From: Lingula anatina | Taxonomy: Eukaryota; Animalia; Brachiopoda | DNA length: 64,000 nt | Direction of reading: 5' to 3' | Assembly: GCA_051362555.1 (NCBI GenBank) | Contig: CM120640.1 | Span: 23,670,225 to 23,734,224 of the forward strand | Shown here: piece after piece, positions 22,728 through 61,588 of the stretch | Position numbering within the stretch: the stretch's first letter is position 1 | Layout: each line of letters opens with the position of its first letter | Program-made: the position numbers and the translations under genes | Notes under the pieces: model-generated | What the model was told of the DNA's origin: nothing | The model's database searches: none | Seen by the model: only the letters and a program-made list of their open reading frames with translations

Positions 22728-22821
22728 ATGAAGCCTAGCTTAGGGGACCAAGTTCTCATCTTCTTAGCAACATTATGCTTGGCCTCCTGTCGATTGTCAG
22801 AAGCGGACGATGGAAATTTAC
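22728..22821 (+). CDS. Lar: Lar leader exon A: signal peptide MKPSLGDQVLIFLATLCLASCRLSEA-DDGNL, splices in phase 1 to the Ig1 exon
   Basis: ACAATG start context; in-frame upstream TAA at 22704-22706; hydrophobic core VLIFLATLCLA; S-E-A cleavage motif; 31 codons + 1 nt then GTGAGT donor at 22822; C + AT (37918) gives His and continues in frame into EPSIIQ. Confidence 0.8.
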
Positions 22822-35900: not shown

Positions 35901-37220
35901 CACCTTAAAGAATGCTTTTTCCATGGATCAATTGAAGTTTTTTCATAGTGCATAAAAAAAGCATTCAGTTAAATTTAATCTTGTAAATCTGTAGAGTATT
36001 GTTGCAGTTTTTTTTTTAAATGATATCAGGATTTACTTCAGAAATAAACAGAGGATCGGTGCCAACTTGGAAAAACCAATGAATGCATGATGTGTGTCAC
36101 TTGAGAGAATGAGGGATCTTATGTGGGTGTGTGATCTGCATTCTTAACAACATTGCATTCAATCAATCTAACTTTTCATTGCTTTCATCTTAGACTTTGC
36201 ACATATACTACTAATGTATCTTGGGCATTTTTCAGAGTATCCCTTATAGGCATTGCTGACAACTTGCTAAAGTGTGTGTGTGGTTTTATAAAGATTCTTG
36301 CAGACTTGTGCCTCCCAACATAACAACAGAACATCCCAGCTCTGCTCCTCACTAGATGCTTGGGATGTTCTATTGTTGTATCTTGGCTGAACTTGGCATG
36401 ACAGACTGCAAATTGAATTAAACTATTTCTCACTTAGCACTAACTAACCAAATACATTGCATTAATTACGCACAGGTGCAAATACCTCTACCCTGGAGTT
36501 CCGATTTGTCAACTATGTAACACGTAAGTAGCAGGTAGATGCATGGTGCTTGAGCAGGTATGACCAGTTACACCACAAAGGCAAAAAGAATTTCATAATT
36601 AGAACAAAGTAAACTTCTCCCACTTCAAAGTCAACTACCTCTTACATAGGCATACATGTATGTGCAGATATGTGGTTCTGCAGCTAGCAACTCGCAATAT
36701 TTTTGCAGAATTATAAGGAAAAAGTAATAAATACTGCCAGAAACAAAGGTAGGATCCATTTTCCTACATATGAAGTCCATTTTTCTGAAATATTCTAGCT
36801 TTGGGTTTTGCTAAGTTAGTTAAGCCTTTACGTCATACAGTCTGATTTGCAGACAAACAAAACTGTTGGAGTGATATGTAATTTTATCAGGAAAACTTGG
36901 CACAATAAAACGTACCAGTTGCCTAGGATTTACTCATTAGGTGGTTATTCTAAAGCAGTGGTTACCACAACAGGACTGCAAAATAAAGAGAACCTTTTTA
37001 GTTAGCACCTTCAAAGGATCATGTCGTCTCACTTTTCACTTCAAATTGGTAAAAGTTGGGTGGGAGACCCCTGTACCTCTTCTCACACAACGATAATGAG
37101 TTCAGGATGTGTTTGAAGTCTGCTAGGCATGCTTAAAAAACTCATTTCTACAAAAGAATTGAAATCAGATCTGTTGTTTTAATACCCAGGTCAAAACGTC
37201 CAGCATCTTTAATATGCAAG

Positions 37221-37917: not shown

Positions 37918-38217
37918 ATGAACCCTCAATAATCCAATCTCCACAAAGCAAGAAGGCTCCAAATGGAGGTATTGTGAGCTTCTTCTGCAAGGCAAGTGGG
38001 AACCCCGCACCAGATATAAAATGGCAGAAAAATGGAAACGATTTGGGTACCTCAAAGCAACGCTACCTGGTGTTTGATATGCCATTTGGGTCCGTCTTGA
38101 GGATAGAGCCAGTGAGACAGAGAAGAGATGATGCTATGTTCACATGCACGGCCACCAATGGGGTGGGAGAGGCAGCCTCTGCTCAAGCACAGTTGACGGT
38201 ATATCCCAATGATATGG
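37918..38217 (+). CDS. Lar: Lar exon: Ig-like domain 1 (EPSIIQSPQ...SFFCKASGNPAPDIKWQKNG...SVLRIEPVRQRRDDAMFTCTATNGVGE...LTVYP)
   Basis: ttcttactcttttttcag acceptor, G|GTATGT donor, 300 nt, phase 1-1; I-set Ig Cys/Trp pattern and LAR-typical SFxCxAxGxPxP and SVLRIEP motifs. Confidence 0.95.
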
Positions 38218-38997
38218 GTATGTCATTCAATTATTAGATGTCAAGATTAAAAAGCTGATGGTGCTAATTTGTACTTTATTGCTACTCATTCATTTCCTAT
38301 GTGGTTGTCAATTTCCCATGATAAGATATCGGGATTGGTATTAGATATCTGATGGCGTGAGTGAATTAGCAGGCAAAAAGCATGATCTGCCACTGAAATG
38401 GTCCTATATCACATAAAGCCACAGTCCACAGTAAAGTTCCCAATTAAGACATCATATTCGTATGGCAAGCTGAATATCAGCCTGTCTAAGTGCCAAAAGT
38501 TCAGAGATCTGTAGCATTTTCAAAAGAAAGTTTTTCTAGTTCCATCTTTTTGCCCAAGGCATAACAGCTGTCATAGTAAGTGATGTTGACATCTGGGAAG
38601 AAAGTTTCTTCTGTCTGTTCTGTTTGCTTATCATATCTTCAGTGGGGAAACACGTCCATTCCTTTACTTTCTTTATTTCAGCATCATGCCCGCTATTCAG
38701 TCCTTTTGCTCTACTGTCAGTACTACTAAACAAGAGGAAGAGCAATAACATATTATATTAAGATGTAAGCTTTTCAAACAGACACAGAGTGTGTGTAAAT
38801 TGATAGAAGTACGAGAATAAGTTGATATTTCCTCTGCTGCATCTATTCATCATTCATCATCCCGTGCATTGTGGATTCGTTTCCTGTCATTTGTGCCGAG
38901 GATAGATAGATAAAGTTAATCTTTTATCTCTATATTGGCCAGCCAGTTCATTGGCGTGTGGAGGACATGTCACCTTTCAAATTTCATTATTAAAATC

Positions 38998-39061
38998 ATG
39001 TTGAAATACTGCATCACATATTTGCTTTATTTTATTATGTCATCCTACAACTGCTCTATTG
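38998..39061 (+). CDS. Lar: Candidate Lar alternative leader exon B: signal-peptide-like MLKYCITYLLYFIMSSYNCSI, phase 1 to the Ig2 exon
   Basis: AAAATCATG start; basic residue then hydrophobic core then small polar residues; 21 codons + G, then strong TTG|GTAAGC donor; in frame with the Ig2 exon (G+AG = Glu). Caveat: T-rich DNA readily encodes hydrophobic peptides. Confidence 0.5.
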
Positions 39062-42000
39062 GTAAGCGTTCTCTGCTCTTGATAATCATTTCCCACAAGA
39101 TATCTAATTATACACACCTACCGACAAATTTTAATGTAATTTGTTGTGTACTATGGATGAGAACTTGCCCATAATTTAATTTACCTCATATGTTATTTAT
39201 GAGAAAGTATGAAATAGCTCAGGTTTTCTTCCTGGTCTGTAATACATGAGTTTTGAAGTTTTGTCTGATCATGCATGAGTGTATTACAAACAAGTTACCA
39301 GTTTTTGCACCAAACCTAGAGCAGACAGAAAGGCTATGGGAATTAATGTTTTATCTTCTTAACATAGCCATCCTTCTCTTCTCTTATCACCTCCCATACT
39401 CTCCCTGTTTTATATTTTTCTATAAAAATGAAGAAAATATACATTTATAGGACTAATCGCTGAAGTTGTGGGATGTTTGAGGGACAAGAAATAGTCATTG
39501 AGGTCTTACGTTTCTCTGGGACTTCAAGAGGAGATTGTCTGATGGATGGGGCGGGGTGTGTCAGCATTAACATTTTTATACTCATTCACATTGGTGTGCC
39601 CTTTACTCCGGATCATTGGATGTCTTCTAGAATGAATAGGGATCTTTTTACTTATTGTGTAGAAAAAATATATGCTACCCTCTTATCCTTTTATGTACAG
39701 GCTAACTTGGAGTGGGTTTTCCAAGGTGGTCATAGAATGTCTGTCCTCACAAGCTGTCATCTCATAACAATTGTATTGGCACCGGGTGCTGAGTTATGAT
39801 AGAGTACCTGGGCTTTCTTTCTCTGTTGGTAAACCTTTTTGGCCCAAGTTATATTCAGTTTCTAAAACATTTAGTTCCGCATGGTAATTGTATCTGGATT
39901 TTATTTTAGTAAGGCTAACAGAGATTAATGCAGCATGGCCTGCAAGGTTTGCTATCCAGTGTGTTTCTAAGCATAGGGACCTGTAGGTTGAGTTATGATA
40001 TGTCACTGACAGACCAGAACACAAGGGAAACCACTTTACTGGTATATAGGATACTGCAGTTTTGTTAGAGAGATAATGTTTTGCATTCTCATGTTTTTTT
40101 TTTCTTCTTTCTTTCAATTTTGAATTGAAGCATGGGCCTGTGCAGTGTTGTGGGATTTCCTTTGCACAAAGGCTCATAATGCGTGGAGGAAATTGTCCCA
40201 TCTGGAACTTAGATTTTATTGAATTGTTTCTTTAATTATCAAAAGTAGAAAAGCAGCCAGTGTTCTTTTTCTAACTGGAGTGCACTAACTGAGGTCTAGA
40301 GTGCAAGTCTGTAACCATCTACAATTTCATGTGTAACAGACCCCTAATGTGTATGAAATGCAATATTTGGTCATTTTCTTTTTTTGAATTTGATATGTCT
40401 TCAAAGGATCCAGAGTTTTTTCTTTCTTTAATTTTAACTATAACCATTTTTCAAAGTTGATCATTTTCAATGCCGTGGTGTTTTAAAGGAACAAATTATT
40501 GTTGCTAAATAAGACTTTGAAAGCTATTTCTTATCAATTTTTTTATCAATTTACCTTATCACTTTCCCTATCACTTTCCTCTCCCTCAATGCCGTCTTCA
40601 TCTGATTCAATCTTTCACATAACTTGCTTTATTGTGATTTTTAAAAAATGCCTCCAAAATTTTCTGTGTATTTCTTGTCTCACTTCAGTATGGTTAAATA
40701 TCTGATTTATAGAATCTTGCTAATATTTAAGTGTGCTTTAAGTGATTTTCATCTGCCCAGGAATTGAGCAGTGGCCTTTTATCTAAGTGGCTACACAGCT
40801 GAAGCACAGTGTGGCCTTTTCCTCTCAGTCTCCACATGTGAAAGTGCATCGTCTCTTTAAGTGGTTGTAAACTGCCCAAAAAACATACTATGGCCTTTAT
40901 ACTTTTTAACCTCTACAGCTTATCATCTCCTTAACCTTTATGTCAAAATAGTTCTTTAGAAGTGGCACTTTTAGCCAAAATTTGCCTGGAGGGCTGCTTT
41001 TTTATCCCCCTGTCAGAAGTGGCGGATAGTTTAGCTCAGATGTAATACTCTTTAATGTGCAAAAGGCATTGTGCTCATTTGTGGCATGCAAGCACGCCTG
41101 TACGTCTGATCAAGATGGATTCTTGATGTATTACATTAATGAAACATTTTGCATTAACACTAATGTTTTTAACAACCTCTTATCTTGAGTAGTGGTTTTC
41201 TTGTCATCAAATAAATGACAAGTATAAAATTGACCTTGTTAAACCGACTTTGCCAAAATGTTGGCTAAAAGCAATAGTGCCTCCTCCCTTTCCACTTAAT
41301 TTGAAACCAAGTGACCACACCAGTTCTTTTTGTTATGTGGGTGCATACTGTTTATTTGACATCTTTTGCAGTTTGTCTCTATAAAAAAAGAAAAAGAAAA
41401 GAAAACAGTGGTGTTAGTGACAGTGCTGCTTTCAGGTTCAGATGAGGTCACCATAGTGCATATTGTGTTTAGATATTTGTTAATCATTCATAACATGGAC
41501 AGGGATTGGTGTGACTAAAGTTGAGATGGGCTATAGAAAGGCACTAAGTCTTTCTACTTTCATAGTGCATAGTATGGAAAGAAATAACATTTCCAAGTGT
41601 ACATACTTGTATCGATAATAAGTTTATTTGAATTCCAATAACTTGGGGGAATATGCCAGAGTCTCTCAGTTAAGTATTTCTGAAGGCACCCTCTTGTTTT
41701 GGGGCCTATCTCCAAAACAAACACTCCAGCCTTGTATTGGACCTGCCAGCCTTCATTAGTATTGGGGTGAGAACTTAAAAAACCTTTTCATGCATTTGTT
41801 TTTGCTGTCTGTCACTTTGTTATCACCAAGACTAGGACTAGAAATTTAAGTAATTGTTTTGGGTCTGCTTCTCAAGTCTCTTAGGTGATTTTCACAGAAG
41901 GAAACTTTGAAAAAAATGAATTTAAATGGATAAAAGACAGATTTGCGTGGTATTGATGACATTTTTGGGCTCACAAAGCCCTGATATCTTGTGGTGCCAA

Positions 42001-43117
42001 AGACTGGGCAATTTTATCTTTTTATTGACAGTAATAATTTAAGATAAACAAAAGAATGAAGATAACTTGCCAGGTTTAAGTGAAAAAGAAATAAGCAACT
42101 TCTATATCTGCCACCACAAGTGCCCCTCTATTATGTTATAGTTACAGTTGGATCTATTTTTGGTTTTCCTTCTTTTTGCAAGGCAAATGTGATTATGTTC
42201 TCTCTGCTGTACAGTTGGGGAAATGTAATTACTCATTTCCCTGTAAGATTTAAGTAATGCTTTAACAATGTGTGTGAATTTTTTTTTCACTTGTATTTTA
42301 GGATCTGCATCTCATTTTCACATCATTGAGACGCTGGATTTTTCTTTCTCACCAAACAGACTTAATTCAATTTGAATTCCAAATAAAATAAGGTTGGAGT
42401 GTTAGGTCTTAGGTCAAGCCGTATTTTTATTTTTAACTGACAAGTGCAACTTGCGCCTGTTTCGCATTTATGTCCAGATGTATTGTAATGTTTTGATGTT
42501 ACAGCCAAAGCCACATGGAGTTCCACTTAAAGCTACATCCATTTTTTTTTTTTTTTTTTTTTTTTTTGTCTCTGGGACTGACTGATCGGCCCTCCCTTAA
42601 AACATCTTGGCATGAGAGTTGGTGTATTTGCAGTCCGAGTCCTCTAAGGGTCACTTCATTGATGATCCTATCTCCCTATATCAACAACTGGCCCTGCTGC
42701 TACCAATTTCATCTTATTTGGCTTCACTGCTTATCCGTGCCATTGTGGGTTTCCATTTGGACACTGTTGCTACCTTGTGGGCTGCTCTCTAAAAAGATAC
42801 ACATTTCTGCCACCCAGGTTTAGCAAAGATTAGTTTTCTTTCCGATACTATCTAAATATGTTTCTGTTTTGCAAAAATATGTTCTTTACACTGATTCTAA
42901 CTAGGGAGACCACACACTGAACATTGAAATGGTACTGAGCTTGATATTGTTTTTGATTAAAATGGTGATATATAATTAGAATCTAATAAAAGAATAAGTT
43001 TTAGATGCTTATCAGTTTACTATGAACTTTCAGAATTTAAAATCTCACTCCCAAAAGCTGGTTTAAACAAAATATTAAATTTTTTTTCTGATAGAATTTT
43101 CAGATATGCAGAATTGT

Positions 43118-43433
43118 GGAGGGCAGCCCTCTATTCCAAGGGTCCACTGTTCAGAAACTAAAAGAGCCTTGATCAGAAATTGACTGCTTTTCCGAAGGTC
43201 CACCTTTCAGAATGTTTGAGGGTTTGCTATTCCAAATGTCCTCCATCCGAAAAAAGTCGATTGATGCAATAGCTGCACATAAACAAGTTGTATTAGTTGT
43301 GTAATCAGGGCACTGACCTTGTGTTAAAGAAGTGCATTTAAATTGCTAACTTGGTGATGTTTAGGCTATATCTGTAACCTTAGGAATAGCAGACCCTCGG
43401 AACAGGGGACCCTCAGAATAAAGAGGCACATCC
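43118..43433. mobile_element. MITE-like non-autonomous DNA element with imperfect inverted ends built from ~16-bp subrepeats
   Basis: Left ccctctattccaagggtccactgttcag matches the reverse complement of the right end (cctctttattctgagggtcccctgttccgagggtctgctattcc); further degenerate ttccgagggtc-like units at 43189-43250; no clear target-site duplication. Confidence 0.65.
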
Positions 43434-43519
43434 AACTTTAGGTATATTTTTGTTTGGTCCCTGATTCTAGATCTCGCCTTATATGTAAATATTCATTTTT
43501 TTTGCCTTTGACATTGTAG

Positions 43520-43696
43520 AGATGCCACGCACAGCTCCAAAAATTGTAGTCCAACCCAACCTGAAGTCTGTAGAGAAGGACCGGCCTGCCAGTATGCAGT
43601 GTGCAACAGAGGGGACTCCCCCACCTAGGATATACTGGCTTAAGGACTATATACCAGTGGATATATCAGACCCTAGGATAACTGTCTCTGAATCTG
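43520..43696 (+). CDS. Lar: Lar exon: Ig2 N-terminal part (EMPRTAPKIVVQPNLKSVEKDRPASMQCATEGTPPPRIYWLKDYIPVDISDPRITVSES)
   Basis: ttgtag acceptor after a T-rich tract, G|GTAACA donor, 177 nt, phase 1-1; resembles LAR PxLKxVE and WxKDxxPVD motifs. Confidence 0.93.
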
Positions 43697-44065
43697 GTAA
43701 CATATTGCTATGTGGTGTTGTATATTCTGTAACCACCGACTGGAAGAAAAAAGTTAATTCATTCATCTGACTGCAGTGTGATTTAATCCATGTCTGCAGC
43801 AGTGTAGTTTTAGTTAGCCAGAGATGACTGTATTGAATAAAACATTTAAATGTGCAAATGATTGATTGCATTATGTCATACACTAATATGTTTAATAAGA
43901 AATTCCAAATGGTATTTTGCATTGATTCACTTTCAAACCAATGTGCACATTTTATATCAAGTAGCATTATGAACAAAACCATTAGAACCTTGTGAATGTA
44001 GTGATAGATAACTGATTTCCTGAGGCTTTCTGACTGACAGTAATGGTCTGTGGTTGATATTGCAG

Positions 44066-44176
44066 GCACGCTCAATATTATGAACAGCCGAAAATCAGAT
44101 CAAGGGAAATATGAATGTGTTGCAGAGAATGAAGCTGGAGTGGCCTATTCCTATGCTGCCAATCTATATGTGAGAG
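44066..44176 (+). CDS. Lar: Lar exon: Ig2 C-terminal part ([37 protein letters not shown])
   Basis: ttgcag acceptor, G|GTAAGC donor, 111 nt, phase 1-1; [10 protein letters not shown] and ANLYVR are hallmark LAR-RPTP motifs. Confidence 0.96.
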
Positions 44177-47100
44177 GTAAGCCCTGTGCTGAGAACCATT
44201 GTGCTTTGCTCTGTTGTTGTCCTCTCCTTTCAAACAAAACATCTTAAAAGCATCAACTTCCACTTTTGATAAAACAAATAAACATACCATTGTACTACTA
44301 CAGGGGAAAATGGGAAATAAATTCAAAAATACAGGAACATGAAAACTGAAAGAGCACTCCCAGATCAATTAATGGAACTTGAAGAAAAGAATAGACAGGT
44401 GCGAGCGGCAGACAGTCTCTAGATAGCTCAAGTGATTGTCAGATAACTGAGCACTAGTTCGTCAATCATTTATGACTGTGTTTGCTTTGTAAGAATAACC
44501 TGCACTTGATCTTAGAACATTTATGCCTATTTGACTAGGTATTCCAATTGAACTGAAAAGTTCCAAATATATAAAAACTCTAATTTAATAAAGAAAAGAC
44601 ACAATTGAGAGAAACTGATATGACATATTTTCTTGCCCTGGGCTCAGATGTAGGTTAGCCAGAGTCATTCATTCTCTCTCTGCCTAAGGTGGCCTTTTTT
44701 TTAAGTGGTAAAATCATAAGACTTGACTATTGATTACTCCAAGTCTGTACCAACACAACACAAAGTGAGATGCAGTAATGGTTTCCAAATTTCTAACATC
44801 TCACTTATGCAAAATTTTAACACTTTCATTATGTATTTTTTTAACACACAAAAAGAAAAAAAACTGTAAGGCAAATGCAATGCATTTTTGAGAGCTTTCC
44901 AATCATCTTTTCCTGATATTGCTAACAAAACAGTTTCAGGAAAATCTAATCAGTTCTGTTTGAATTTAGTCATTAATTACCTTATATGTGTCAGGAATGC
45001 AGCCTTAGTAACATATGGCCTTCTGAAAGAGATCTGATTAGGTGTTAATATGATCAAATGTTTCTGAGTTGTAACGGAACTGTTATGTAGGATTCCATTT
45101 CCTTTGGCAACAGTTTTGTTCTTGGGCTCAGGATTCACTTTGTTCACTCCTTGTGTACACAATACTGGGATTAGGCTATGACTCATACTCTGGACCTGCT
45201 TGACAAAATTTGGTAATAGCATTCAAGGAAAAACAATCGAGATGGCTTCCAAACTGTAGCTGTCAGTGCTTACTTGATAAAAATTTAAAGATTACTCTGG
45301 ACAGATGAGAAAAGATTTTTCAAGATGAAGCAAACTGGCTTAATAAACATTAGTGAAGGGGTGAGAAATGAATTAATAGACTGTACTGTATTATTTGACT
45401 GATTTCTGCACAGTTCAAGCTGATCCTACAGCTCCGTATAATCGGTCATTTCGTTAGGAAAAGAACATCAAGAACTGTTATGTGCTGTTAGTGCAAAGTA
45501 ATAAAAGATGGGTCAATTATATCTCAACATCAGAATTGTTTTTTAGAATTCACCAATTGCCCTTTTTTCCCTGCAGTATGAAATTCTTAGAAACAGCAGA
45601 TTTAGAGCACAGGACTGGCAAAAATGCAGTTATGCTCTCAGTAAGTCTGTCCAATTTTAGCTATTTCATACAGTGATTCCTTGTCTGGTTTGGGGGTGTT
45701 TCAGCCTGCAGGTTTGTTTGAATATGATGAATTTGATAGCATCTAAAGCCACATTGATTTTTATCTACTGAAAAGAATGATCAATATGAATATGAACTGT
45801 TGCTTAAGGTTGATGAATTTACACCTTATTGTAAGTCTGATTAATGAAAGCTCTATAATTAGGTTGAGAAACAGACATTTATTGCCCCAAGAATAAATAT
45901 TTGTATGTAAAGAAGGATTTTAGAATGACATAAAAAGCATGATGATTTGGTGCATCAATATTCGTGACTGAAAAATGCTGAAATTCATTTCTTATTTGAT
46001 TGAAATCGTGATGACATAAAAGAAATTGTAATAGGAACACCTCACCTTAATTCCAATTAAAGGAAATTGAGTCCTCATTTAAATAATTGTAATTGCTTGA
46101 ATTGTTTAGATCACTAAGTCAACATCCACTGATAGATAAAAAGCTATTGATTTTGGTCTTAGATGTGTTTGTATTCACTGGGGTATACTCCGGACGTCAA
46201 GACTGGAAGGGAAGGCGGCCATTATTTGGCACTGCTGCCTTATGAGAATTATCACAACAGTAAAGATGATCAATAATCCAAATATTTACCTGCTCTTTGG
46301 AGAACTCTAAGTTCACAGACATTGACGGACATAAAAAAGGAACCTGACTGCAGGATGTAGTTTCAAAAGATTTTTTTCTTTAGACAGATATTAGCCATCT
46401 TTTTGCAGCCAAATGAATTCTTTTTACTTGTAAATTTTTTGTGCATAAGTTGTGTCTTAAGGATAAATGTATGAAAAGGATTTAAAGCTGGAAATTGTAT
46501 ATTGACATACTATTTCACTCTTGTTACAGCATGATTTGATTGTTCAAGTCAACAGCTGCATATCCCTATGTAATAATAATGTCTCAGTTTTGTCTTGCTG
46601 TGTCTGTAGGGGAATAGGATTACATTATCCATATTTCTCCACAGTAGGTTGTTACATAATGGAAAGTCGCATTGCATTCCACTTGAATAATCTTGATAGA
46701 TGACTAACTTTGCACATATATTACCATTTATTCTGCAGTGGGAGACTTCTGCTTGATTTATTGCAATATTTTTTCCACTTCATATTTTAAACATTACTCA
46801 AATGATTCGCTTCTGTTCACACAGCACATTGGTTAACTAAATGCCATTCCAGCCAGAACTTGTCTGGGGAAGCACCATAAATATCAATGATAATTTGATA
46901 TATTACAACCATTGTGTTCATAACTACCATATTTTAGATTTTGTGTGCATCTACTGTAGACCTTGAGACATTTCAATTTTTTTTTTCAATTCATTTCTTA
47001 AAGAAAATTCAAAATGCAACTAATTCTAAGATAGAGTAAGCTAAATTTATGTAGATTAATGGGTCACTTCAGCTCTGCATAGGGTCCCTTATCTTTGGCT

Positions 47101-50100
47101 TTGTGGTAATTCATATGCATCTTTTTTCCTATCCAGACTTCTTTATACTGTTGTGTGAAAAAGTGTTGTTATCATCCTTTTTCTGGCCTAGATTGAAAAC
47201 GAGTAGGGCCCCTGCATGAAATGGCATTTGCTGGGGTTCCCCACCAAGGACAGACTGATAAGAGGGGTATCAAAGAGGGCTACATTGTCTTATCCAAACA
47301 CTGAGCTAAAATCTGAAGGGATTGCTCACTGGGGAATTGATAAAGAAACTTGGACCAGCTCTTGCTTCCATGTTTGTGGCTGCTGATCAATAAACAGTTT
47401 GTGTTGAATGAAGCAGGACACGAATATCACTGATATGCCTTTGAAGATTAAAGTCAATAGGTTAATGTCTCGTACCAGCAGGCATATAGTGGAAGAATTA
47501 CACGAAACCAGACCAAGAAAAGAAGCCAGTGGAATTTCTTTTTTCCCCCTAACTTGGGCAATTAAATTGTTACTTTTGATCATTGTTCACTGCGGAGTGC
47601 GTACACTCCTTGAGTGGCCATCCTGCAGTGCAGCAATCTTTCAGTTGTGATACAGCTAGACTCCAGGGTTCAACTCTGACATTTTGGTTTTCATTTAGAT
47701 CTGAAGCACCATAGCTGAGCATCTTATCATGTGAGATTACTCTGATTCATTCTCATGCAAGAGGATCTCTAGAGCAAAGTCTTCACAGCCAGTGCTTTGA
47801 AAAATACACTAAGTTGGTTACTTAAAGGTTAGGCTAGATTACATGTGACCCATATCCCTTTTATAGCTTGTCACCTAAGTGCATTATCAAATTGTTGCAT
47901 TAGAAACTGATGGTATCGTGGGGTCTCTGTCAGAATTAAATAATCTATGAACCTTATTCTTAGGTCAGTTTCTCCTTGTATGCACCACTGGCTTCTTTCA
48001 AAAACTAAAGTAATGTATCCTTTAATGAGCAAAATTCATAAAACATTCAAATGGTTAACCTACAAAATGTGGACTCAAGGAACTTGATAAATATTGAAGC
48101 AGCAGTGAAGCAGGAAAATTTGTGGTTGGCAAGCAAGAACACACTTTAGGGTAGAGATAATGCAAACTTGCTGCTATCTTTCTTAGTAAGACACTTGTAA
48201 AGGTCAGGAGTCTGTAAGCTTCCAAGGAATTTTGAAAGATTTGATTCAAGGTGTTTCCTTTTAGGCTGCTCTGCATTGTGAATTATGTCCAGGTTTACCC
48301 CTACTGAATAACCTAATTGAATGAATTGAATGCTGCAACAGTTAATTTAAGTAAAGTTCAGTAAAAAAAGAATGTGAAATTACTACAAGGAAATGAAAAA
48401 AGAATCCAATTTCACTTAAAAGACACTTACACGCTGCCTGTGAAGCATTATGATGTGAATAAAGAGTTTGATTGATTTTTTTCTTTTGTGGGAAAGCTTT
48501 TTTGCCTTCTAAGAATGAAAAACCCTTCTTTAAGATGTATTTTACACTTAAAATGATCAATAAGTTTTTTTTTGCAGGGCACATTGATTGTAGCTTTAGG
48601 GGGAGAATAGATGTTTTGAATCTGGTCTAATTGCAGGCTGAACATCTGAGAAAATTCCATGACCTCTTCTACTTAAGATTCGACTCAAACCACTAGAATG
48701 GGGAGTTTTCCCAATCCCTCTGCTCATTATGTTACTGTGTTAATTGCTTAATGGAAACGGCCATTCAATTTACAGACATAGTCATGCTAATATTTCTACA
48801 AATATTGGCACTGCCCCAATATTTAGCTCAAACTGCAGAGCGGGTGGTTTTTCTTGGTTCTGCAGCATTAAATGTGAGCAATATATTGAAAAATAACAGC
48901 AATGGTAGCTTTTGCAGCAAAGAACAGCCTGCTCATGGTTCTGTGAGCGTGAGAGGAAAAAAGACAGTTGCATCTTGTCTAACTTTATAGAAGGAATAAA
49001 TAGCTTTGGCAAACATGCTGCTTATTGCTAATAATAGGTTATTCTATGTTGTGTAAGGGAGCTTTTGTAGAGCTCTCTGTCTGCCAGTTAACCTGTCTGC
49101 AAGAGATGTTGACATACAACAGGGAATTGAGCTGGTCATAGAATCAATAATATTGGAATAGCAGCAACCCATCTGTCAGGAACTTGCCTGGTGATGGGGA
49201 AGCAAACAGTGTGCAGGAATTTTCTGCTTGATGCTGTCTATTAACTGGATGTCAAAGAAGTTGTTTTATTAAAGAAAACAATTTAAAATATGAATTTCAC
49301 AGTAGGTGGGTTGAAATAATCCCATGTTTTTATATATTTTTTCATATAGTATAATGTAACAAAAAAAAAAAAAAAAGATTGAGACCCTCCCCTCCCTCCC
49401 CAAAAACCTATCCCCTTAAGCACACATACATACATGCATATACATTCTAGAATCCCTTAGTGTTATGCTATCCATGCTTAATATTTTCTTGTTTGATTAA
49501 GATTTTTTAAAACCCAGTTGAATTTTATTTATGTAATATTTTGTCTTTCTTGACTTTATGTTCACATTTAGCCAGAAAATCCCATTTCAAGAAAATTAAA
49601 TACAGGAAGCAACAAATCTTAAAGCATTCTACTGTTTCACCAAAGAGACATTTGATCCTGATCTGAATACAAGTTACTCAGTACGCTGACCCCAGCAAAT
49701 GGGGCCATATTTTTAGTTCAAAAAGTGTAAGACACCGGAATGAACAAATGTCTTTTCAATGCATATGATTTGATCATTCCAAGTCATTGATGTTGCAGCA
49801 AATAAGTGGCACTTCAGTTAATCAAGATATTGAAATAGAACCAGACTCCAGGTTCAGATGTGTGCTTTAAGATTAGCATAGAGGGATTACTGGTGCTACG
49901 GCCCATTGTACACAACTGCCTGTTGAGATTAACCATGTATGCCCAATATGAGCCCTTGGTGGTTTTGGAATCAGTAGAAATCATTCAACTGGCAATTTGT
50001 CTGTACTTAATGCAAAAGTTCCTGAGGGGAAGCAAGCTGGGCATAAACAAAATGATTTCAACAGAATTTTATGTACTTTGCACTGCCCTTGAACAAACAA

Positions 50101-50905
50101 ATAAGGAAAAAATTACTACATTAACGAATTGCAGTATTGCAATGATTTAATGGTGATAAATAATTTATCTGCAACTGTTAATCAGTAACACATTTTGTGT
50201 ATTATGCAAATTTAAGCAGTGGCAATAGTTGACTGCAGAGAGACAAAAATTACTATTATACCTTCAGTTCAGTGTAAACCAGTAGCAGACGCCATAATGT
50301 CCAATTTTGTAAAACAAATACCTACCCACATATTCCATGTTAATTTATGACCTGGGAGCGTACAATGTAGGATATTGAAAGGGTTCCAATCAATGTAGGA
50401 AAATGAAATAGAAATGGTTAATGAGACCCGTCATGCAATTCTTGGGGGAGGTAATAAGGGATGTCAGTTGATTATGGTTGCTATGATGTAAATTGCCAAA
50501 CATCTGGTTTTAGTTTTGTTACATGGAACAGTTCTTAAACTATGCCTTTGAATTGCTGCCCCCTCCACTATTTAGGAATTGCATATCCAATTATAGGTAT
50601 AGATATTTTGACTTGATATGACAGGGTTATGTTTCAATAAGAATGGATTTGTTTGTCTAATCATGAACAGTACAAAGTCAATCGGATTGTGACTGTTGAG
50701 ATTAACCTTCTCTACCACAATTAAATGGACCTGCTCTAGCACAACCATAAAAAAGCCTCACAATTGGATTCTAAATACATAGTCTATGTTAACGCATACT
50801 TGGTACATAGTCTTCATTATTTTATAATAATTGATGATTTCTCTCTTTTGATAATGATATCAATAAACAGCAAACTATATTTAGTCTTGTATTTTTCTAT
50901 TTCAG

Positions 50906-51178
50906 TACGTAATGTGGCTCCTCGTTTCTCCATCCAGCCCCCAGAAATGTTGGATGTGATGCCAGGAGGCGACATCAACATCACCTGTGTTGCTGTGGGT
51001 TCTCCAATGCCTGTCGTTAGGTGGAAGTTAGGTGTCACAGATCTAGCCCCAGTGGCTGATGCCCCCTTGGGAAAGAATGTTCTCATCCTGAAGGATGTTC
51101 AACAATCTGCAAATTATACTTGCTTTGCAGCTTCTGATTTGGGCAATATCGAAGCTATTACTCAGGTCAAGGTCAAAG
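50906..51178 (+). CDS. Lar: Lar exon: Ig3 ([13 protein letters not shown]...[23 protein letters not shown]...[25 protein letters not shown])
   Basis: ttttctatttcag acceptor, AAG|GTTGGT donor, 273 nt, phase 1-1; [12 protein letters not shown] and SANYTC are LAR Ig3 signatures. Confidence 0.96.
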
Positions 51179-52464: not shown

Positions 52465-52752
52465 CGCTTCCCAATCCTCCTGTTCACCTCGAGATATCCG
52501 AGGTCACAGCCACATCTGTTAAACTTAGTTGGGATGAAGGAAACAATGATCCCATAGACAGTTATATTATCAACTATAAGCCCAAGTATAAGCAAGGTGT
52601 GGAAAGCAAATCAATATCAGGCATTGTAGAAACTGAACACACTATTACTGGCCTGGTCTCTTATACCATCTATGAGTTCAGAGTAGTAGCAGTCAACAAT
52701 ATTGGGCGAGGGAGACCCAGTGAGCCAAAAGAGTGTACAACTGGGGAACAAC
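52465..52752 (+). CDS. Lar: Lar exon: fibronectin type III domain 1 (ALPNPP...EVTATSVKLSWD...YTIYEFRVVAVNNIGRGRPS...TTGEQ)
   Basis: ttttttgcctttcag acceptor, C|GTATGT donor, 288 nt, phase 1-1; FN3 Trp/Tyr pattern matching LAR FN1. Confidence 0.95.
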
Positions 52753-53320
52753 GTATGTAGGATAGTTCTTATTTATTATAACCAATATTTTACCTATCTC
52801 TATCTCTCTTTCTTTCTTTTTTTACTGTGTGCTGTTTATATCAGGAGTGAAACTTTCCCTTTCTGTTTTGTATAATGTTTAAAAAAGATTAGTGGATCTC
52901 TGAGTTTGAGAATGTGATTTTTAATAATCCTAACTAAAATAATGAATACTAGACAGAGCTCTCCTTTCACTTTGGCATGAGTAATGTAATTTTTATTAAT
53001 ATTTACACAAGCATTTATTTTTCATCATAATTAATTTTCAAAGAATGGCTGTATGGCAGTGGATTTTAACATTGTAGCCAGGTCGTAAGCTTAGGTTCAG
53101 TTCCACCAAGCTTCAGCCAGATGCTCTAGCACATGGCTGTGGTCAACCTGCTCTGCTGGCATGTCTGCTTGTTTTCCATGTTTTGGTTAGAAATGAACAA
53201 AATTAAGTTTTTATCTTAATATTGTATGACGTTTGCCTTGTGGTTTGAAATTTGGCTTGGTGTGTTTAAACATTAGTAAATGTTGATGTGAACATTTCTT
53301 TTCTCTGTATTTGATCTCAG

Positions 53321-53421
53321 AGCCCAGTACACCTCCACGCAATGTCCGAGCCCGTCCATTAAGTACTAGCACACTATATGTCCAGTGGGATGAGCCAGAA
53401 ATACCCAATGGACTCATCTTG
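53321..53421 (+). CDS. Lar: Lar exon: FN2 N-terminal part ([34 protein letters not shown]); absent from the ORF track
   Basis: ttgatctcag acceptor, TTG|GTAAGT donor, 101 nt, phase 1-0; matches the LAR PRNVxARxLS...VQWxEPExPNG pattern. Confidence 0.95.
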
Positions 53422-53785: not shown

Positions 53786-53996
53786 GGATACCAGGTGTAC
53801 TACACCCTGAAAGAGGAAGGCGAGAACTTAGCCGAAAGACCTTATTACACATGGCAAAACATGGCAGTTACTGATAAGGTAGCCAATATTCGTAACCTGT
53901 CTCCAAACAGGACATATGTTGTCTGTGTCCTGGGAAGAACCAGCGTTGGCGATGGACCTCCGTCAGAGTATGTTGAAGTCCTAACAAGACAAGGAG
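53786..53996 (+). CDS. Lar: Lar exon: FN2 C-terminal part (GYQVYYT...NLSPNRTYVVCVLGRTSVGDGPPSEYVEVLTRQG)
   Basis: cacttccag acceptor, GAG|GTGAGT donor, 211 nt, phase 0-1; GYxVYYT, TSVGDGP and TxQG motifs of LAR FN2. Confidence 0.95.
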
Positions 53997-56900: not shown

Positions 56901-59189
56901 GAAAGGGGTAGGGTTAGAACAATTTTTTTATTGTATTAAATAAATAAAAACTGTATGAATTTACCAGCTAAATATCAGATTTAAAAATCTATGTAAAAAA
57001 TCATTTAAGGAAGAAAATGGACATTTCTTACAGTCCAATATAGTCATTCTGGAGTAGAAAATACTCAAAGAAAGTTCATTAAAAAGTTGAAGACATTTAG
57101 ACAGTTTTGTCAGAATGAGATAATGGTGCTAATATTTCTGTCAGTAGCCTTTTGTCAGACTGCATTCAGCAACTGCTTTATGTGACTGACCTGCCTTAAC
57201 CAGAACAACCTTTTGAACAACTCTAGTGCCCTTGTCAAAAGGGTTCATGTAGTTCTAATTATCCCTGTGAGGAAACTGATACCAAGTGCTGCCGTTAAAA
57301 CAAATGATTGCCAATTATATTAAACAAAATGAGAAAAAGAGGTGAAATTAATCTGGGTTAGGGTATTAACAGTTTCTGGCAATTTGTTGGAAAAAAATTA
57401 TATAGGGAGTAGAATAATGAATAAGTTTACACAGCAAATATAGCTTATTGACTTGAATGTCATTTAATTAACAGAGCTGTTAACTTTGGAGAATAAATGG
57501 ATAATTGAGAATGAAAGCGAAGTGGGAAAAATGTCAACCCTTGGTGAGTCCACATCGATCCAAGAGACTCAGTGGGCATAATTTTGCATTCACTATGGTC
57601 GGCCTGTCAGTGCCATCTGAATTATTACTTCATAAACCTTCAACTTTATTGACATGTCAGGAAAAACGAGAAAAGTTAAGTTGTCAGTTAGCAAAAGTCA
57701 ATGACGCTCAGGAAGATTTTCCTCATAATATCTTAATTATCTGCTGCGACCTCTTGGATATCATGGGTCCTCTGCGGCATTGCCGATATGGCCCTGTGGA
57801 CTTGGCTATATTTTAAACTCTGTTATGTGAGGCCATGTTATGTGCTTCCTCTGCTCTATACATATTTGAGGCATTTTACTAGCTCTACACAAGCACAGGT
57901 CGTACTGTTTTTGCAGTTTCTTGGGACCAGTGATGTATACATTTTTGAAAAACATTAATATACTGATTGCTGATCCTTGCCTTGTTTTTGTGGAGCTTTT
58001 GCGATGTTTACATAAACTTTTTTCTGTGGTCAAATCAGAAATGTCATTTGGGATTTTTAGTTGATGGAAAATGCAATAGATGTTTTGACATCTGCACTAA
58101 TATTTCTTAATAGCATTTTGATTTGTATTTCTCAAGTAAGTAGCTTTTCTAAAGATGAAACGAAGAATTTTGAATTGTCACTTTTGATTTTCAATGTTTT
58201 GTTTTTTTTTTTTTTGTCATTAATTAGAAAAAAGGTTTGGAAAAAGCATCTCAAATGAACCAAGGTCTTTTAAACTGTCCTAAAATGTCTTAAGAAACCT
58301 GATCACAATCAAAAGATAAAACCTATATATACACTGAAACTTTAAGTAAATGTAAAGAAAACCTATGGTATCATATTGAATCTAACTCATCTCCTCCAAC
58401 AGTCATCTAAATTAAATCAGGAAATCGGATCAATATTTCTAGATAATCACATTGTTTGTTTCACCTATGCTACATTTTGCTGCATTTCTGCCAGGACTAA
58501 TGTTCGTCTGACATTTTGTCTGGCTAAACAGACTTGTATTTTATGATAGGAAATAGAGGCTCCAGTGCCAGTTAAACTGGAATAACTGGATGTAGACAGT
58601 TCTCTTTATTGAATGCTTGAATTAATTGACGAGGCTCGGAATCAATTGAGTTTACATTGATCCAATTGCATGTTATAGTTTGTGGATAGTAAGAATATGA
58701 AGTGTCCACATCTCATTCCATCATATTCCCCCCCTCTTACACATATATCTCTTGTATGTATGAATATGACATCACAGCATCTCACCACCAGTCTAGAATA
58801 TAAAAAGGATGACCAGATCAAGATCTCTGCAATCAAAAGGCATCTCTTTCACTATTGAAGGGAGTCCCTAAGCCACAAGTTGTTGTTGAAACTCAATCCC
58901 CTTCTCATAAACACCTAGGGAGCAGCAGTTTGCCTGTATTGTGCTGAAGCAATGGAGGATATGGAGCTAAACCATTATTCCTGCACTAAGGTGTTTAGAT
59001 AGGAGGGACTATTATGTCCTGTACCTTGGGGTTTAGTTGAGTGAAAATATTGTACAACATTGGAATCCTGGCATAATCAACTGCATAGAGCAGCTTCTTG
59101 AATGAGGTTCACTGATTACCCAGAACCTGGATTTTCTGAATCCCAATAAAAGCGCTCTTAGCTTAAGGGTTCTTATATGCTGGAGAGAA

Positions 59190-59933
59190 AATAATTAGCA
59201 TAGAGCTTAGGATATGCCACTCAGGCCAACTGACATGGGATGGGGGTTGTCCTGATTCTAAACAGATGTCTTAGTAGTAACTAGAACTGCTGGTGGTGCA
59301 ACCTGCAGGGAACAATCTAAGCCGCGTGCTGTGGGCAGCCATTAGCATAAGGATATGCTGTCTCTCCTGAGCCATGAAAGCCAGCTTAGTAATATGCTGA
59401 TGAGGAGGTCGCTGTTGTCAGTGTCAGAACAGCTGCATTCAAGTGTGTAGAACAGTTTTCTATAGATCAGAGGTGAAGAGAAGTGTTAGGTTGGAGTCCG
59501 AGGACAGTAACAAAAACAGTGGTCATTTCTGTACTACACAGTCGCTTACTCTTACTGGGCAGTCTTTTGTAGGAATGCAAACTACTGTGACCTACTAGGT
59601 ATATACTACCTATACAGACAGGGCTAGTGAATCACTACCTGTAACTGGAGAGAGATAACTGGGATACCAGCAAACATGTTAAATGGGAAGACTATATTGT
59701 AGTTTTACTCGGTGATTTATAAAGTAGGGAAAAATTAAGTTGATGAAAAAGCCTTGGGAGATATTGAAAGGTTGAATGGAATGGATTTTTCTCCTGAAAG
59801 GCCAAAGGTTATAACAGATTGTTCCATGTGAAAGGACTGGCAGAGTGACCTGTTGTACTAGAAGGGTGTTAGTGTGACTACACGCTAATTCATCAGCTTG
59901 CCAAATCTTTGAAGAAGGTAGAAAAGAGTAAGG
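59190..59933 (+). promoter_or_regulatory. Candidate internal promoter and 5'UTR for leader exon C
   Basis: GC-richer block; duplicated ATTAGCATA...GGATATGC motif (59194-59217, 59341-59358); Inr-like TCAGTG near 59418; no convincing acceptor just upstream of the ATG. Confidence 0.4.
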
Positions 59934-60024
59934 ATGGGGAGACTTCTCCGTCCTGTATTAATTGAGATTTTATACTTTTTGCTATTGGCACACACAGATG
60001 TTAACAGTCAAGGAGACGGGAAAG
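59934..60024 (+). CDS. Lar: Lar internal alternative leader exon C: signal peptide MGRLLRPVLIEILYFLLLAHTDVNS-QGDGK, phase 1 to the FN3 exon
   Basis: AGGATGG start (A at -3, G at +4); in-frame upstream TAG at 59919-59921; basic n-region, hydrophobic h-region, V-N-S cleavage motif; 30 codons + G then AAG|GTGAGC donor; G+TG (61304) gives Val and continues into PEQPRN. Confidence 0.78.
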
Positions 60025-61303
60025 GTGAGCTTTGCTAAGTATCCTATAAAAAAAAGAGACATTCAGTTTTTAATTGACATTCATGGGTTTTCTCTCTGGG
60101 TGTGAGTTTTGATAGCTATCATGTGATTACAAACTTTTTTCGTTTAGTTCAAGTTTGCATGTCTGTTTGTAAGTTGTTTTGATTGCAGTTGCACCTTAGA
60201 GCTTTGGAAGTGTCTTGATTGTTATTCAACAATTATTTGAAGAGATTTCTCTCTCTTTTCATTCTACATCTTTTTCCTAAGAAACTTTTCTGCTTCTGTT
60301 CAGTGCCATTATTGAAGACTTGTATATTTGACGCAGGTCTTTCATTCTTCTATCTCCTATCCTCCTTTGACCATCCCCTCAGAAGAAGCACACTCCTTTT
60401 CGGAGCTGTTGCCTCGTATGTCAGATGTTTTGTGTGATCAATGGTAGTGTCACATTTGAATGGACATTTGAGTGCATTAGAGGAGGGACGCTTTGTTTGC
60501 AAAATTGGGTCAGAGCCTTGTATTGTGTGGTGTGTGAAGAAATGTTATAGAGTATGCTCATGCAGCACCGTCTAATTTTGTAATCCTGTAATGTTAGCAC
60601 AATTCACTTTGCCAGCATGTTAACTTGTATTGTCATTGGGGAGGATAGGTAAGGCAAAGTTTGGAGTGGAAATATATGGAGACTGCTGTGTGCTGTGAAG
60701 CAGAAATGTTTATAGTCATTGCTTTTACCTTGAAAAACAACCTTTTTTTGCTGAAGTTGAATGGTGGTCATGACTGACTCTTTGGTTGTAGAAACCCTGA
60801 TGTCATACATCATTGTATACTAATACATATTTACATATATTTGAAACACGAAAGCATACTCTTTACTTGTCATTTTTCAAAATGATGTACTTTGTGATTA
60901 TTTTGTCATTTATTTAAATTATGTTACCTTTTGAAAAAGATTGAATTGGTGGCTGATGTGTTTGCATAAAAAATAGAAATATCCAGACTGACTCATTTTT
61001 AAGGTTGATAATTTGATAGCTTCATCATAAAGGAAATTATATATCATTACTCTTCTCATTGCCCATAATCATCTAATCTGGCTCATCAGATTGTTATCTG
61101 GGATCAAAATTATGCAAACATCAACTGATCAAATATAATGACAACATTGTAACTCATATTATATTGAAATCATTTTTTCCACAAGATTTAGATACTTCTT
61201 AACACTTAAATAATTTTTAAAAAGTTTTATTGCACTTGAATTTTTTGTTCTGTCAATTTTTTAATTCTTGGAATTTATTTGAATTATTTTTCTTATATCA
61301 CAG

Positions 61304-61588
61304 TGCCAGAGCAACCTAGGAATTTACAGACCGAGGTACGAGGCCCAGACCAGATTTACGTTACCTGGGAAAAACCAGAGAATTCTGACGACATTATCAC
61401 AAGTTATGAGTTATATTACCAATCTCCATCAAGGGGGAAGGTCCGTGTGACCATCCAGCCCCCAGTGGAGAGTTACCTGTTGGAGGATCTAATCCCAGCC
61501 ACAGTATACAACATCCATGTCCTTGCTAAATCAGAGAGGGGGACAGGGCCTGAGAGCCCTGTAGTCCAAGCAACAACGCAGGAGTTCA
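61304..61588 (+). CDS. Lar: Lar exon: FN3 (VPEQPRNLQTEV...YVTWEKP...LEDLIPATVYNIHVLAKSERGTGP...TTQEF)
   Basis: tcttatatcacag acceptor, A|GTGAGT donor, 285 nt, phase 1-1; FN3 consensus following TRQG as in LAR proteins. Confidence 0.94.

What the first reader, a model, noticed from the sequence alone, without database searches (positions are those of the whole stretch)
59934..60024. Intronic signal-peptide exon predicts a short, Ig-less LAR isoform beginning at FN3
Seen: MGRLLRPVLIEILYFLLLAHTDVNS|QGDGK, an upstream in-frame stop and an AAG|GTGAGC donor 1.28 kb before the FN3 exon, in frame with it. The product would lack Ig1-3 and FN1-2, including the Ig domains that bind heparan/chondroitin sulfate and synaptic partners in known LAR-RPTPs. 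It resembles C. elegans PTP-3B but starts at a different FN3 repeat, which suggests convergent origin (inference).
Basis: partly seen in the sequence, partly recalled or inferred. Interest (0 to 1): 0.75.

Follow-up and report, generated by a model that had tools for sequence, protein, structure and literature searches.

The report
Hidden start exon shortens LAR receptor
An exon hidden in an intron of a brachiopod's LAR receptor phosphatase gene is spliced in RNA onto the third fibronectin domain and likely starts a shorter surface receptor without the usual ligand-binding tip, a new case of a trick already known from nematodes.

Summary
Real, and a new case of a known design. The window holds the 5' part of Lingula anatina Lar: ten exons give 629 of 629 residues of RefSeq isoform X1. 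The exon at 59934-60024 is as described, and RNA reads join its donor to the FN3 exon in 4 of 4 runs laid: 17 of 119 reads entering FN3 (14%). Coverage extends about 1 kb upstream, and no splice into it was listed, so it is probably a first exon; the start site is not mapped. None of the 5 Lingula isoforms in the protein collection has it. The predicted 1511-aa product keeps FN3-FN9, membrane span and both phosphatase domains and loses Ig1-3 and FN1-2. Signal-peptide function and translation are untested: there is a Glu in the hydrophobic core and 17 upstream ATGs. Ig-less LARs are known (C. elegans PTP-3B starts at FN5; leaf-beetle models start at FN1), so only the FN3 boundary and the lineage are new. 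The scan noted a similar arrangement before on other DNA (insect Ptp99A; unchecked).

The parts
58800..59933 (+). Probable 5' untranslated part of the alternative first exon (5' edge approximate); holds 17 ATGs between 59100 and 59933, whose frames all close by 59831
   Evidence: Summed depth 2.9-7.4 in the four bins from 58719 to 59922 against a mean of 0.57 in 14 upstream intron bins; GC 41.9% over 58800-60024, above all 161 overlapping intron windows (mean 35.1%, bounds chosen afterwards); upstream ATGs
58799..58806 (+). TATA-like box at the 5' edge of the covered region (weak candidate promoter element)
   Evidence: 66 such matches on the + strand of the window, so chance is high
59919..59921 (+). 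In-frame TAG five codons before the ATG
59934..60024 (+). Coding part of the alternative exon: 30 codons + 1 base, predicted signal peptide, phase-1 donor matching 8 of 9 consensus positions
   Evidence: junction reads
60025..61303 (+). GT-AG intron of the short transcript (1279 nt)
   Evidence: table of joints: 17 reads in 4 of 4 runs
61304..61588 (+). Exon for the third FN3 repeat, shared acceptor of long and short transcripts
53786..53996 (+). Second FN2 exon; its donor is the competing, canonical partner of the 61304 acceptor
   Evidence: 102 junction reads in 4 of 4 runs
22728..22821 (+). Canonical signal-peptide exon of the long isoforms (coding part), absent from the short form
36476..36523 (+). 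16-codon optional mini-exon before Ig1 (absent in RefSeq X2)
37918..51178 (+). Ig1-Ig3 exons (37918-38217, 43520-43696, 44066-44176, 50906-51178), absent from the short form
52465..53421 (+). FN1 exon (52465-52752, optional) and first FN2 exon (53321-53421), absent from the short form

Best explanation
The stretch is a transcribed exon in the FN2-FN3 intron of the brachiopod Lar gene that is spliced onto the FN3 exon, likely as a first exon from its own promoter, and is predicted to give an Ig-less surface receptor with its own signal peptide. Shown: the splice, its frame and its share (about one in seven reads entering FN3). Inferred: a promoter near 58.8-59.7 kb; translation from 59934; signal-peptide cleavage near residue 21 or 26; continuation through FN4-FN9, the membrane span and both phosphatase domains (1511 aa if downstream splicing follows RefSeq X1). 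By analogy with PTP-3B and with Ig-deleted fly Lar, it would act as an FN-only adhesion and guidance receptor: same intracellular output, blind to ligands of Ig1-FN2, and expressed under separate control from the long form.
For: Junction in 4 of 4 runs from 3 studies, 17 of 119 reads, 14% (95% interval 9-22%). Depth steps up about tenfold over 59.0-59.9 kb and falls after the donor (means 0.57, 6.46 and 0.82); the two stranded runs put it mostly on the gene's strand. No joint or loose end into 58.4-59.9 kb was listed. 20 of 20 candidate acceptors there give a stop if joined to the FN2 donor. My signal-exon scan recovers the canonical signal exon and this one among 3 + strand hits. Hydrophobicity lies within the range of 28 LAR N-termini and is reached by 20 of 444 background ATG frames. 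Nine of the 10 canonical introns mapped, including every domain border, are phase 1, as is the new donor. Precedents: three ptp-3 transcripts with independent promoters (PMC4418752, passages); fly Lar without Ig1-3, or with FN7-9 alone, rescues R7 targeting (PMC5683756, passages); GAG and TrkC sites map to the Ig domains and NGL-3 to FN1-2 of RPTP-sigma (PMC4239663, passages).
Against: The start site is not mapped, and depth is only about 0-5 per run there, so a splice into the region carried by fewer than 3 reads per run would not be listed. There are 17 upstream ATGs if transcription starts near 59.1 kb or earlier. A Glu interrupts the hydrophobic core and leaves 8 uncharged residues; only 1 of 28 reference cores holds a charged residue. 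No signal-peptide predictor was available. Among 61 Ig-less of 353 receptor-phosphatase proteins examined, 0 start at FN3 with a hydrophobic leader, so conservation is not shown. Short reads do not link this exon to the membrane span or phosphatase exons, which lie beyond the window.
Confidence: 0.7

Rival explanations
1. It is a real first exon, but its RNA gives little or no surface receptor: upstream reading frames damp translation, or the leader is too weak a signal peptide, so the output is regulatory or a misrouted protein.
For: 17 upstream ATGs, 8 of them in frame; Glu in the hydrophobic core. The rat liver LAR transcript from intron 11 had no predicted signal peptide (PMC2674045, passages).
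Against: All upstream frames close by 59831, none overlaps the ATG. The start context is strong. One run has its depth only from 59622 on (4.41 against 0.11 in the bin before), which fits a short leader. A hydrophobic in-frame leader at a used donor is unlikely by chance.
Confidence: 0.15
2. It is an internal poison exon of the long transcript, included between FN2 and FN3 to trigger decay.
For: Any inclusion after FN2 gives a stop (20 of 20 candidate acceptors). Some candidates have pyrimidine tracts as good as the gene's weaker real acceptors (9-12 of 16). Decay would keep such reads rare.
Against: No joint from 53996 into the region and no loose end was listed, although the downstream junction has 8 and 5 reads in two runs. 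Depth tapers towards 5' and has no sharp left edge at 301-base resolution. A poison exon has no need for a signal-like frame.
Confidence: 0.08
3. It is cryptic intronic transcription that happens to meet a good donor, with no selected function.
For: No FN3-starting form with a hydrophobic leader in other species (0 of 61 Ig-less proteins); low absolute read counts; scattered intron reads elsewhere, such as 56010-56310.
Against: A 10-25% share in each of 4 runs from 3 studies, including animals whose reads differ from the window at many sites; chance rate of such an exon 0.005-0.075 per intron; unusual GC content.
Confidence: 0.07

Closest known systems
C. elegans PTP-3B (and PTP-3C), short isoforms of ptp-3/LAR
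   Same: Ig-less LAR isoform from an independent internal promoter that keeps FN3 repeats and tandem phosphatase domains (PMC4418752 and PMC6984820, passages).
   Different: PTP-3B lacks four FN3 repeats and keeps five; the Lingula form lacks two and would keep seven. PTP-3B has genetic evidence (axon guidance, embryonic junctions, dendrite order); the Lingula form has only junction reads.
RefSeq Lar short isoforms of the leaf beetles Diorhabda sublineata and D. carinulata (P0235, P0241, P0237)
   Same: A separate 30-residue hydrophobic leader joined to an FN3 repeat, with no Ig domain, beside full-length isoforms of the same gene. The junction residue differs from the long form in a way that read-through of an AG acceptor cannot give, so it is a spliced exon (inference).
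   Different: They start at FN1 and keep all nine repeats; they are gene models, and I saw no reads or DNA for them.
Rat liver LAR transcript from intron 11 (PMC2674045)
   Same: Intronic promoter and new first exon giving an Ig-less LAR (abstract and passages).
   Different: Starts near FN6, its exon is mainly untranslated, and no signal peptide was predicted.
RefSeq Lingula anatina Lar isoforms X1-X5 (XP_013388159 to XP_013388179)
   Same: Same gene; 629 of 629 residues match the window's exons.
   Different: 5 of 5 begin with the canonical signal exon; they differ by cassette exons only.

Membership tests
Type IIa (LAR) receptor tyrosine phosphatase gene | Three Ig domains followed by FN3 repeats | tested here: met
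   Pfam on RefSeq X1: 3 Ig stretches, 9 fn3 stretches; the window encodes the signal peptide to FN3 exactly
Type IIa (LAR) receptor tyrosine phosphatase gene | Single membrane span and two phosphatase domains | tested here: met
   In the RefSeq protein, outside the window: 2 Y_phosphatase stretches, both with the catalytic Cys motif, and a hydrophobic span
Type IIa (LAR) receptor tyrosine phosphatase gene | Basic Ig1 loop for glycosaminoglycan binding (typical, not required for membership) | tested here: not met
   1 basic residue in Lingula against 2-4 in 19 of 19 others aligned; the four-lysine mutant blocks GAG binding in RPTP-sigma (PMC4239663, passage); matching the loop to those four lysines is my reading of the alignment
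PTP-3B-like Ig-less LAR isoform | Transcript enters at an FN3 exon and omits all Ig exons | tested here: met
   Junction 60024-61304 in 4 of 4 runs; in-frame stop before the ATG
PTP-3B-like Ig-less LAR isoform | Own promoter and first exon | tested here: inconclusive
   About 1 kb of coverage with no listed splice into it; no cap or 5'-end data; depth low
PTP-3B-like Ig-less LAR isoform | Own working signal peptide (for PTP-3B this is recalled, not seen in a passage) | tested here: inconclusive
   Basic start, hydrophobic core within the range of 28 LAR leaders, but with a Glu in it; no predictor or assay
PTP-3B-like Ig-less LAR isoform | Starts at FN5 with five FN3 repeats (PTP-3B architecture proper) | tested here: not met
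   Starts at FN3 with seven repeats predicted; so it works like PTP-3B at most and is not its counterpart
PTP-3B-like Ig-less LAR isoform | Keeps the membrane span and phosphatase domains in the same transcript | not testable with these tools
   Those exons lie beyond 64000; no genome is held and no long reads were laid
PTP-3B-like Ig-less LAR isoform | Localisation and function distinct from the long form | not testable with these tools
   Needs expression and genetic work

The most novel reading that the evidence does not exclude
Bilaterians have repeatedly invented an FN-only LAR receptor by planting a new signal-peptide first exon before different phase-1 domain borders (FN1 in leaf beetles, FN3 in this brachiopod, FN5 in nematodes). 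The brachiopod cut removes exactly the Ig1-FN2 block that carries the mapped vertebrate synaptic and proteoglycan ligand sites, so a ligand-switched short LAR would be a general, overlooked second arm of LAR signalling with its own still unknown FN ligands.
Probability: 0.3. Interest if true: 0.6.

Novelty: new variant of a known kind. Interest (0 to 1): 0.4.

Why it matters
It adds an RNA-supported, unannotated LAR isoform in a lophotrochozoan, a branch for which my paper searches found no such report. It suggests that the long/short split known from C. elegans genetics is a recurring design and not a nematode oddity. It gives a natural FN3-FN9 receptor for finding the ligands of LAR's membrane-proximal FN repeats, which fly rescue experiments show to be sufficient for R7 targeting. 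It does not open a new kind of system.

Tried and rejected
No whole genome is held, so downstream exons and other copies were not examined. The run search listed no indexed RNA holder (no evidence either way); 4 of the 9 raw-read runs it offered were laid, and the 5' edge is known only at 301-base resolution from that one call. The protein atlas gave no result for the 30-residue leader. Duplication of the canonical signal exon as origin: not supported (DNA P=0.92, protein P=0.12 against shuffles); no similar sequence elsewhere in the window. Sequence constraint from read variants: 13 variant places are listed in 59092-59926 and none in 59934-60024, but 12 less supported rows were not shown, so this is inconclusive. 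Molluscan Ig-less models starting at FN1 (Pomacea X7, Babylonia X6, a Potamilus model) and mayfly and louse models starting at FN5 were not accepted as precedents: their leaders end in residues that fit read-through of a pyrimidine tract and AG acceptor, the pattern that Lingula's own intron frame before FN1 shows; their DNA was not seen. Mite and aphid models starting at FN2 are undecided. The first mapping of homologue N-termini misplaced domains and was redone. The first exon table had wrong ends and was corrected. Ackley 2005 and Hofmeyer 2009 are not held and are cited only through other papers. PMC10084454 gave nothing useful. No structure or complex prediction was run, as neither would decide the question.

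Full report
Setting. The window is AT-rich animal DNA that holds the 5' coding part of a LAR-type receptor tyrosine phosphatase gene on the + strand. The FN3 exon at 61304 matched one protein among 24 candidates at E below 1e-15: Lar isoform X2 of the brachiopod Lingula anatina, 99% identical. Ten exons from 22728 to 61588 translate to 629 of 629 residues of RefSeq isoform X1: signal peptide, a mini-exon, Ig1-3 and FN1-3. Pfam finds 3 Ig, 9 FN3 and 2 phosphatase stretches in the whole protein. The rest of the gene lies beyond the window, and no genome is held.

The observation. My scan for such exons found 3 on the + strand of the window (the canonical signal exon, this one, and an unverified one at 5231) and 1 on the - strand. 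Simulated introns gave 0.005-0.075 hits each, depending on the donor threshold (thresholds were set after seeing the candidate).

RNA evidence. The run search offered 9 raw-read RNA runs of the same species label; I laid 4, from 3 studies, reading 6-30% of each. The junction 60024-61304 has 2, 2, 8 and 5 reads, and the canonical junction 53996-61304 has 17, 19, 24 and 42. Together that is 17 of 119 reads, 14% (95% interval 9-22%), with 10-25% per run. In one run the two reads share a start and may be one molecule. Summed depth averages 0.57 over 14 upstream intron bins, 6.46 over the three bins from 59020 to 59922, and 0.82 over three bins after the donor. No joint or loose end into the region was listed, but listing needs 3 reads from 2 starts in a run, and depth is low.

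First exon or internal exon. An in-frame cassette is excluded in practice: the stop lies 15 bases before the ATG, the bases between are purine-rich, and 20 of 20 candidate acceptors in 58400-59933 give a stop when joined to the FN2 donor. Coverage tapers towards about 58.4-58.8 kb. The stretch 58800-60024 is the most GC-rich of 161 overlapping intron windows, and a TATA-like box sits at 58799, though 66 such matches occur in the window. A first exon from an intronic promoter is the simplest reading; the start site is not mapped, and a further non-coding exon upstream is not excluded (it would not change the protein). Against efficient translation stand 17 upstream ATGs from 59100 on, but all their frames close by 59831.

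The leader. It has a basic start, a hydrophobic core and small residues at possible cleavage positions before residue 22 or 27 (the -3,-1 rule is recalled). Its best 10-residue hydrophobicity, 2.64, exceeds 7 of 28 LAR N-termini, and its best 12-residue value exceeds 18 of 28; 20 of 444 background ATG frames reach it. A Glu at position 11 is atypical: 1 of 28 reference cores holds a charged residue. No predictor was on hand, so the signal peptide remains a prediction. The exon is not a detectable copy of the canonical signal exon.

Annotation and relatives. The Lingula cluster has 5 members, all starting with the canonical signal exon, and the search, which covered 169-2000 residues, listed no short form; so the isoform is absent from this protein collection, though RefSeq itself was not queried. 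From two further searches (best 120 hits each) and members of 20 clusters (at most 15 listed each), 353 proteins carried the start of the first phosphatase domain and 61 lacked Ig domains (2 of them are sponge proteins of another family). Ten have a short hydrophobic leader directly before an FN repeat: 6 at FN1, 2 at FN2, 2 at FN5 and none at FN3. The 3 that start at FN3 have non-hydrophobic leaders and look like truncated models. Only the 3 leaf-beetle proteins (2 species) must come from a spliced exon, because their junction residue cannot arise by reading through an AG acceptor (inference). The molluscan, mayfly and louse leaders may be read-through artefacts.

Mechanism. Nine of 10 canonical introns mapped, and all domain borders, are phase 1, so any new ATG exon with a phase-1 donor enters in frame at a domain start. 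This makes repeated origin at different repeats easy and fits the different boundaries seen. If downstream splicing follows X1, the precursor has 1511 residues against 2015 and keeps FN3-FN9, the membrane span and both phosphatase domains. In RPTP-sigma the proteoglycan site is on Ig1, TrkC needs the Ig domains and NGL-3 binds FN1-2 (PMC4239663, passages; PMC6078854, passages); the Lingula cut removes that block. Ig-less LAR can still work: fly Lar without Ig1-3, or with FN7-9 alone, rescues R7 targeting (PMC5683756, passages), and PTP-3B serves guidance, embryonic junctions and dendrite order while PTP-3A serves synapses (PMC4418752, PMC6133548, PMC7281833 and bioRxiv 10.1101/2022.08.11.503694, passages). 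Human LAR FN5-8 is reported to bind heparin as well (PMC9346286, passage), so the short form need not be blind to sulfated glycans. Also, Lingula's long form has only 1 basic residue in the Ig1 loop where 19 of 19 others have 2-4, so the contrast between long and short forms may differ from the vertebrate textbook.

What is known. PTP-3B lacks the Ig domains and four FN3 repeats (PMC6984820, passage). ptp-3 has three promoters, and a human five-FN3 form is mentioned (PMC4418752, passages). A rat liver transcript starts in intron 11 (PMC2674045, abstract and passages). Searches for a brachiopod or lophotrochozoan case listed none; the library lacks most subscription journals, the Lingula genome paper was not read, and no supplements were read, so an isoform table there could hold this exon. 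The scan's own index has nothing on this genome or sequence and one unchecked note of a like arrangement in insect Ptp99A.

Verdict. Confidence is 0.7 that it gives a signal-peptide-bearing, Ig-less receptor. It is a new variant of a known kind; interest 0.4.

Noticed in passing
window 52465-52752: The FN1 exon is skipped: 9 reads of run X4 join the end of Ig3 to the first FN2 exon (loose end at 53319), matching RefSeq isoform X3; long isoforms of Babylonia and Pomacea also lack FN1.
   Followed up: partly
window 37918-38217 (Ig1 exon): The basic loop of Ig1 has 1 Lys/Arg in Lingula against 2-4 in 19 other LARs; the basic motif at the start of Ig3 has also lost one Arg. The long form may bind glycosaminoglycans weakly.
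   Followed up: partly
window 5231-5336: A second candidate ATG exon with a hydrophobic stretch and a phase-1 donor (7 of 9), upstream of the canonical signal exon; no reads were laid there, and it may be chance (1 such hit on the - strand).
   Followed up: no
window 36476-36523: A 16-codon optional mini-exon between the signal peptide and Ig1 (absent in X2); similar short inserts appear in mollusc and insect LARs.
   Followed up: partly
window 61304 (FN2-FN3 border), homologues: Several molluscs (Haliotis, Babylonia, Pomacea, Octopus) have a short insert at exactly this border, so the same intron appears to host small optional exons in other lophotrochozoans.
   Followed up: no
proteins P0111, P0372, P0375, P0376 (vertebrate PTPRD models): Goose, sturgeon, snake and turtle models share an identical hydrophobic leader before the Ig2-Ig3 mini-exon; probably read-through of a highly conserved acceptor region, possibly a real Ig3-starting form.
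   Followed up: no
window 58719-59019: Run X1, a stranded library, shows depth 0.99 on the opposite strand at the 5' edge of the exon; about one read pair, which could be divergent transcription from the promoter or noise.
   Followed up: no
window 56010-56611: An isolated patch of intron reads in two runs, unexplained.
   Followed up: no
RefSeq X1 (P0006): At least 4 accessions encode the same X1 protein, which suggests several 5' untranslated variants upstream of 22728.
   Followed up: no
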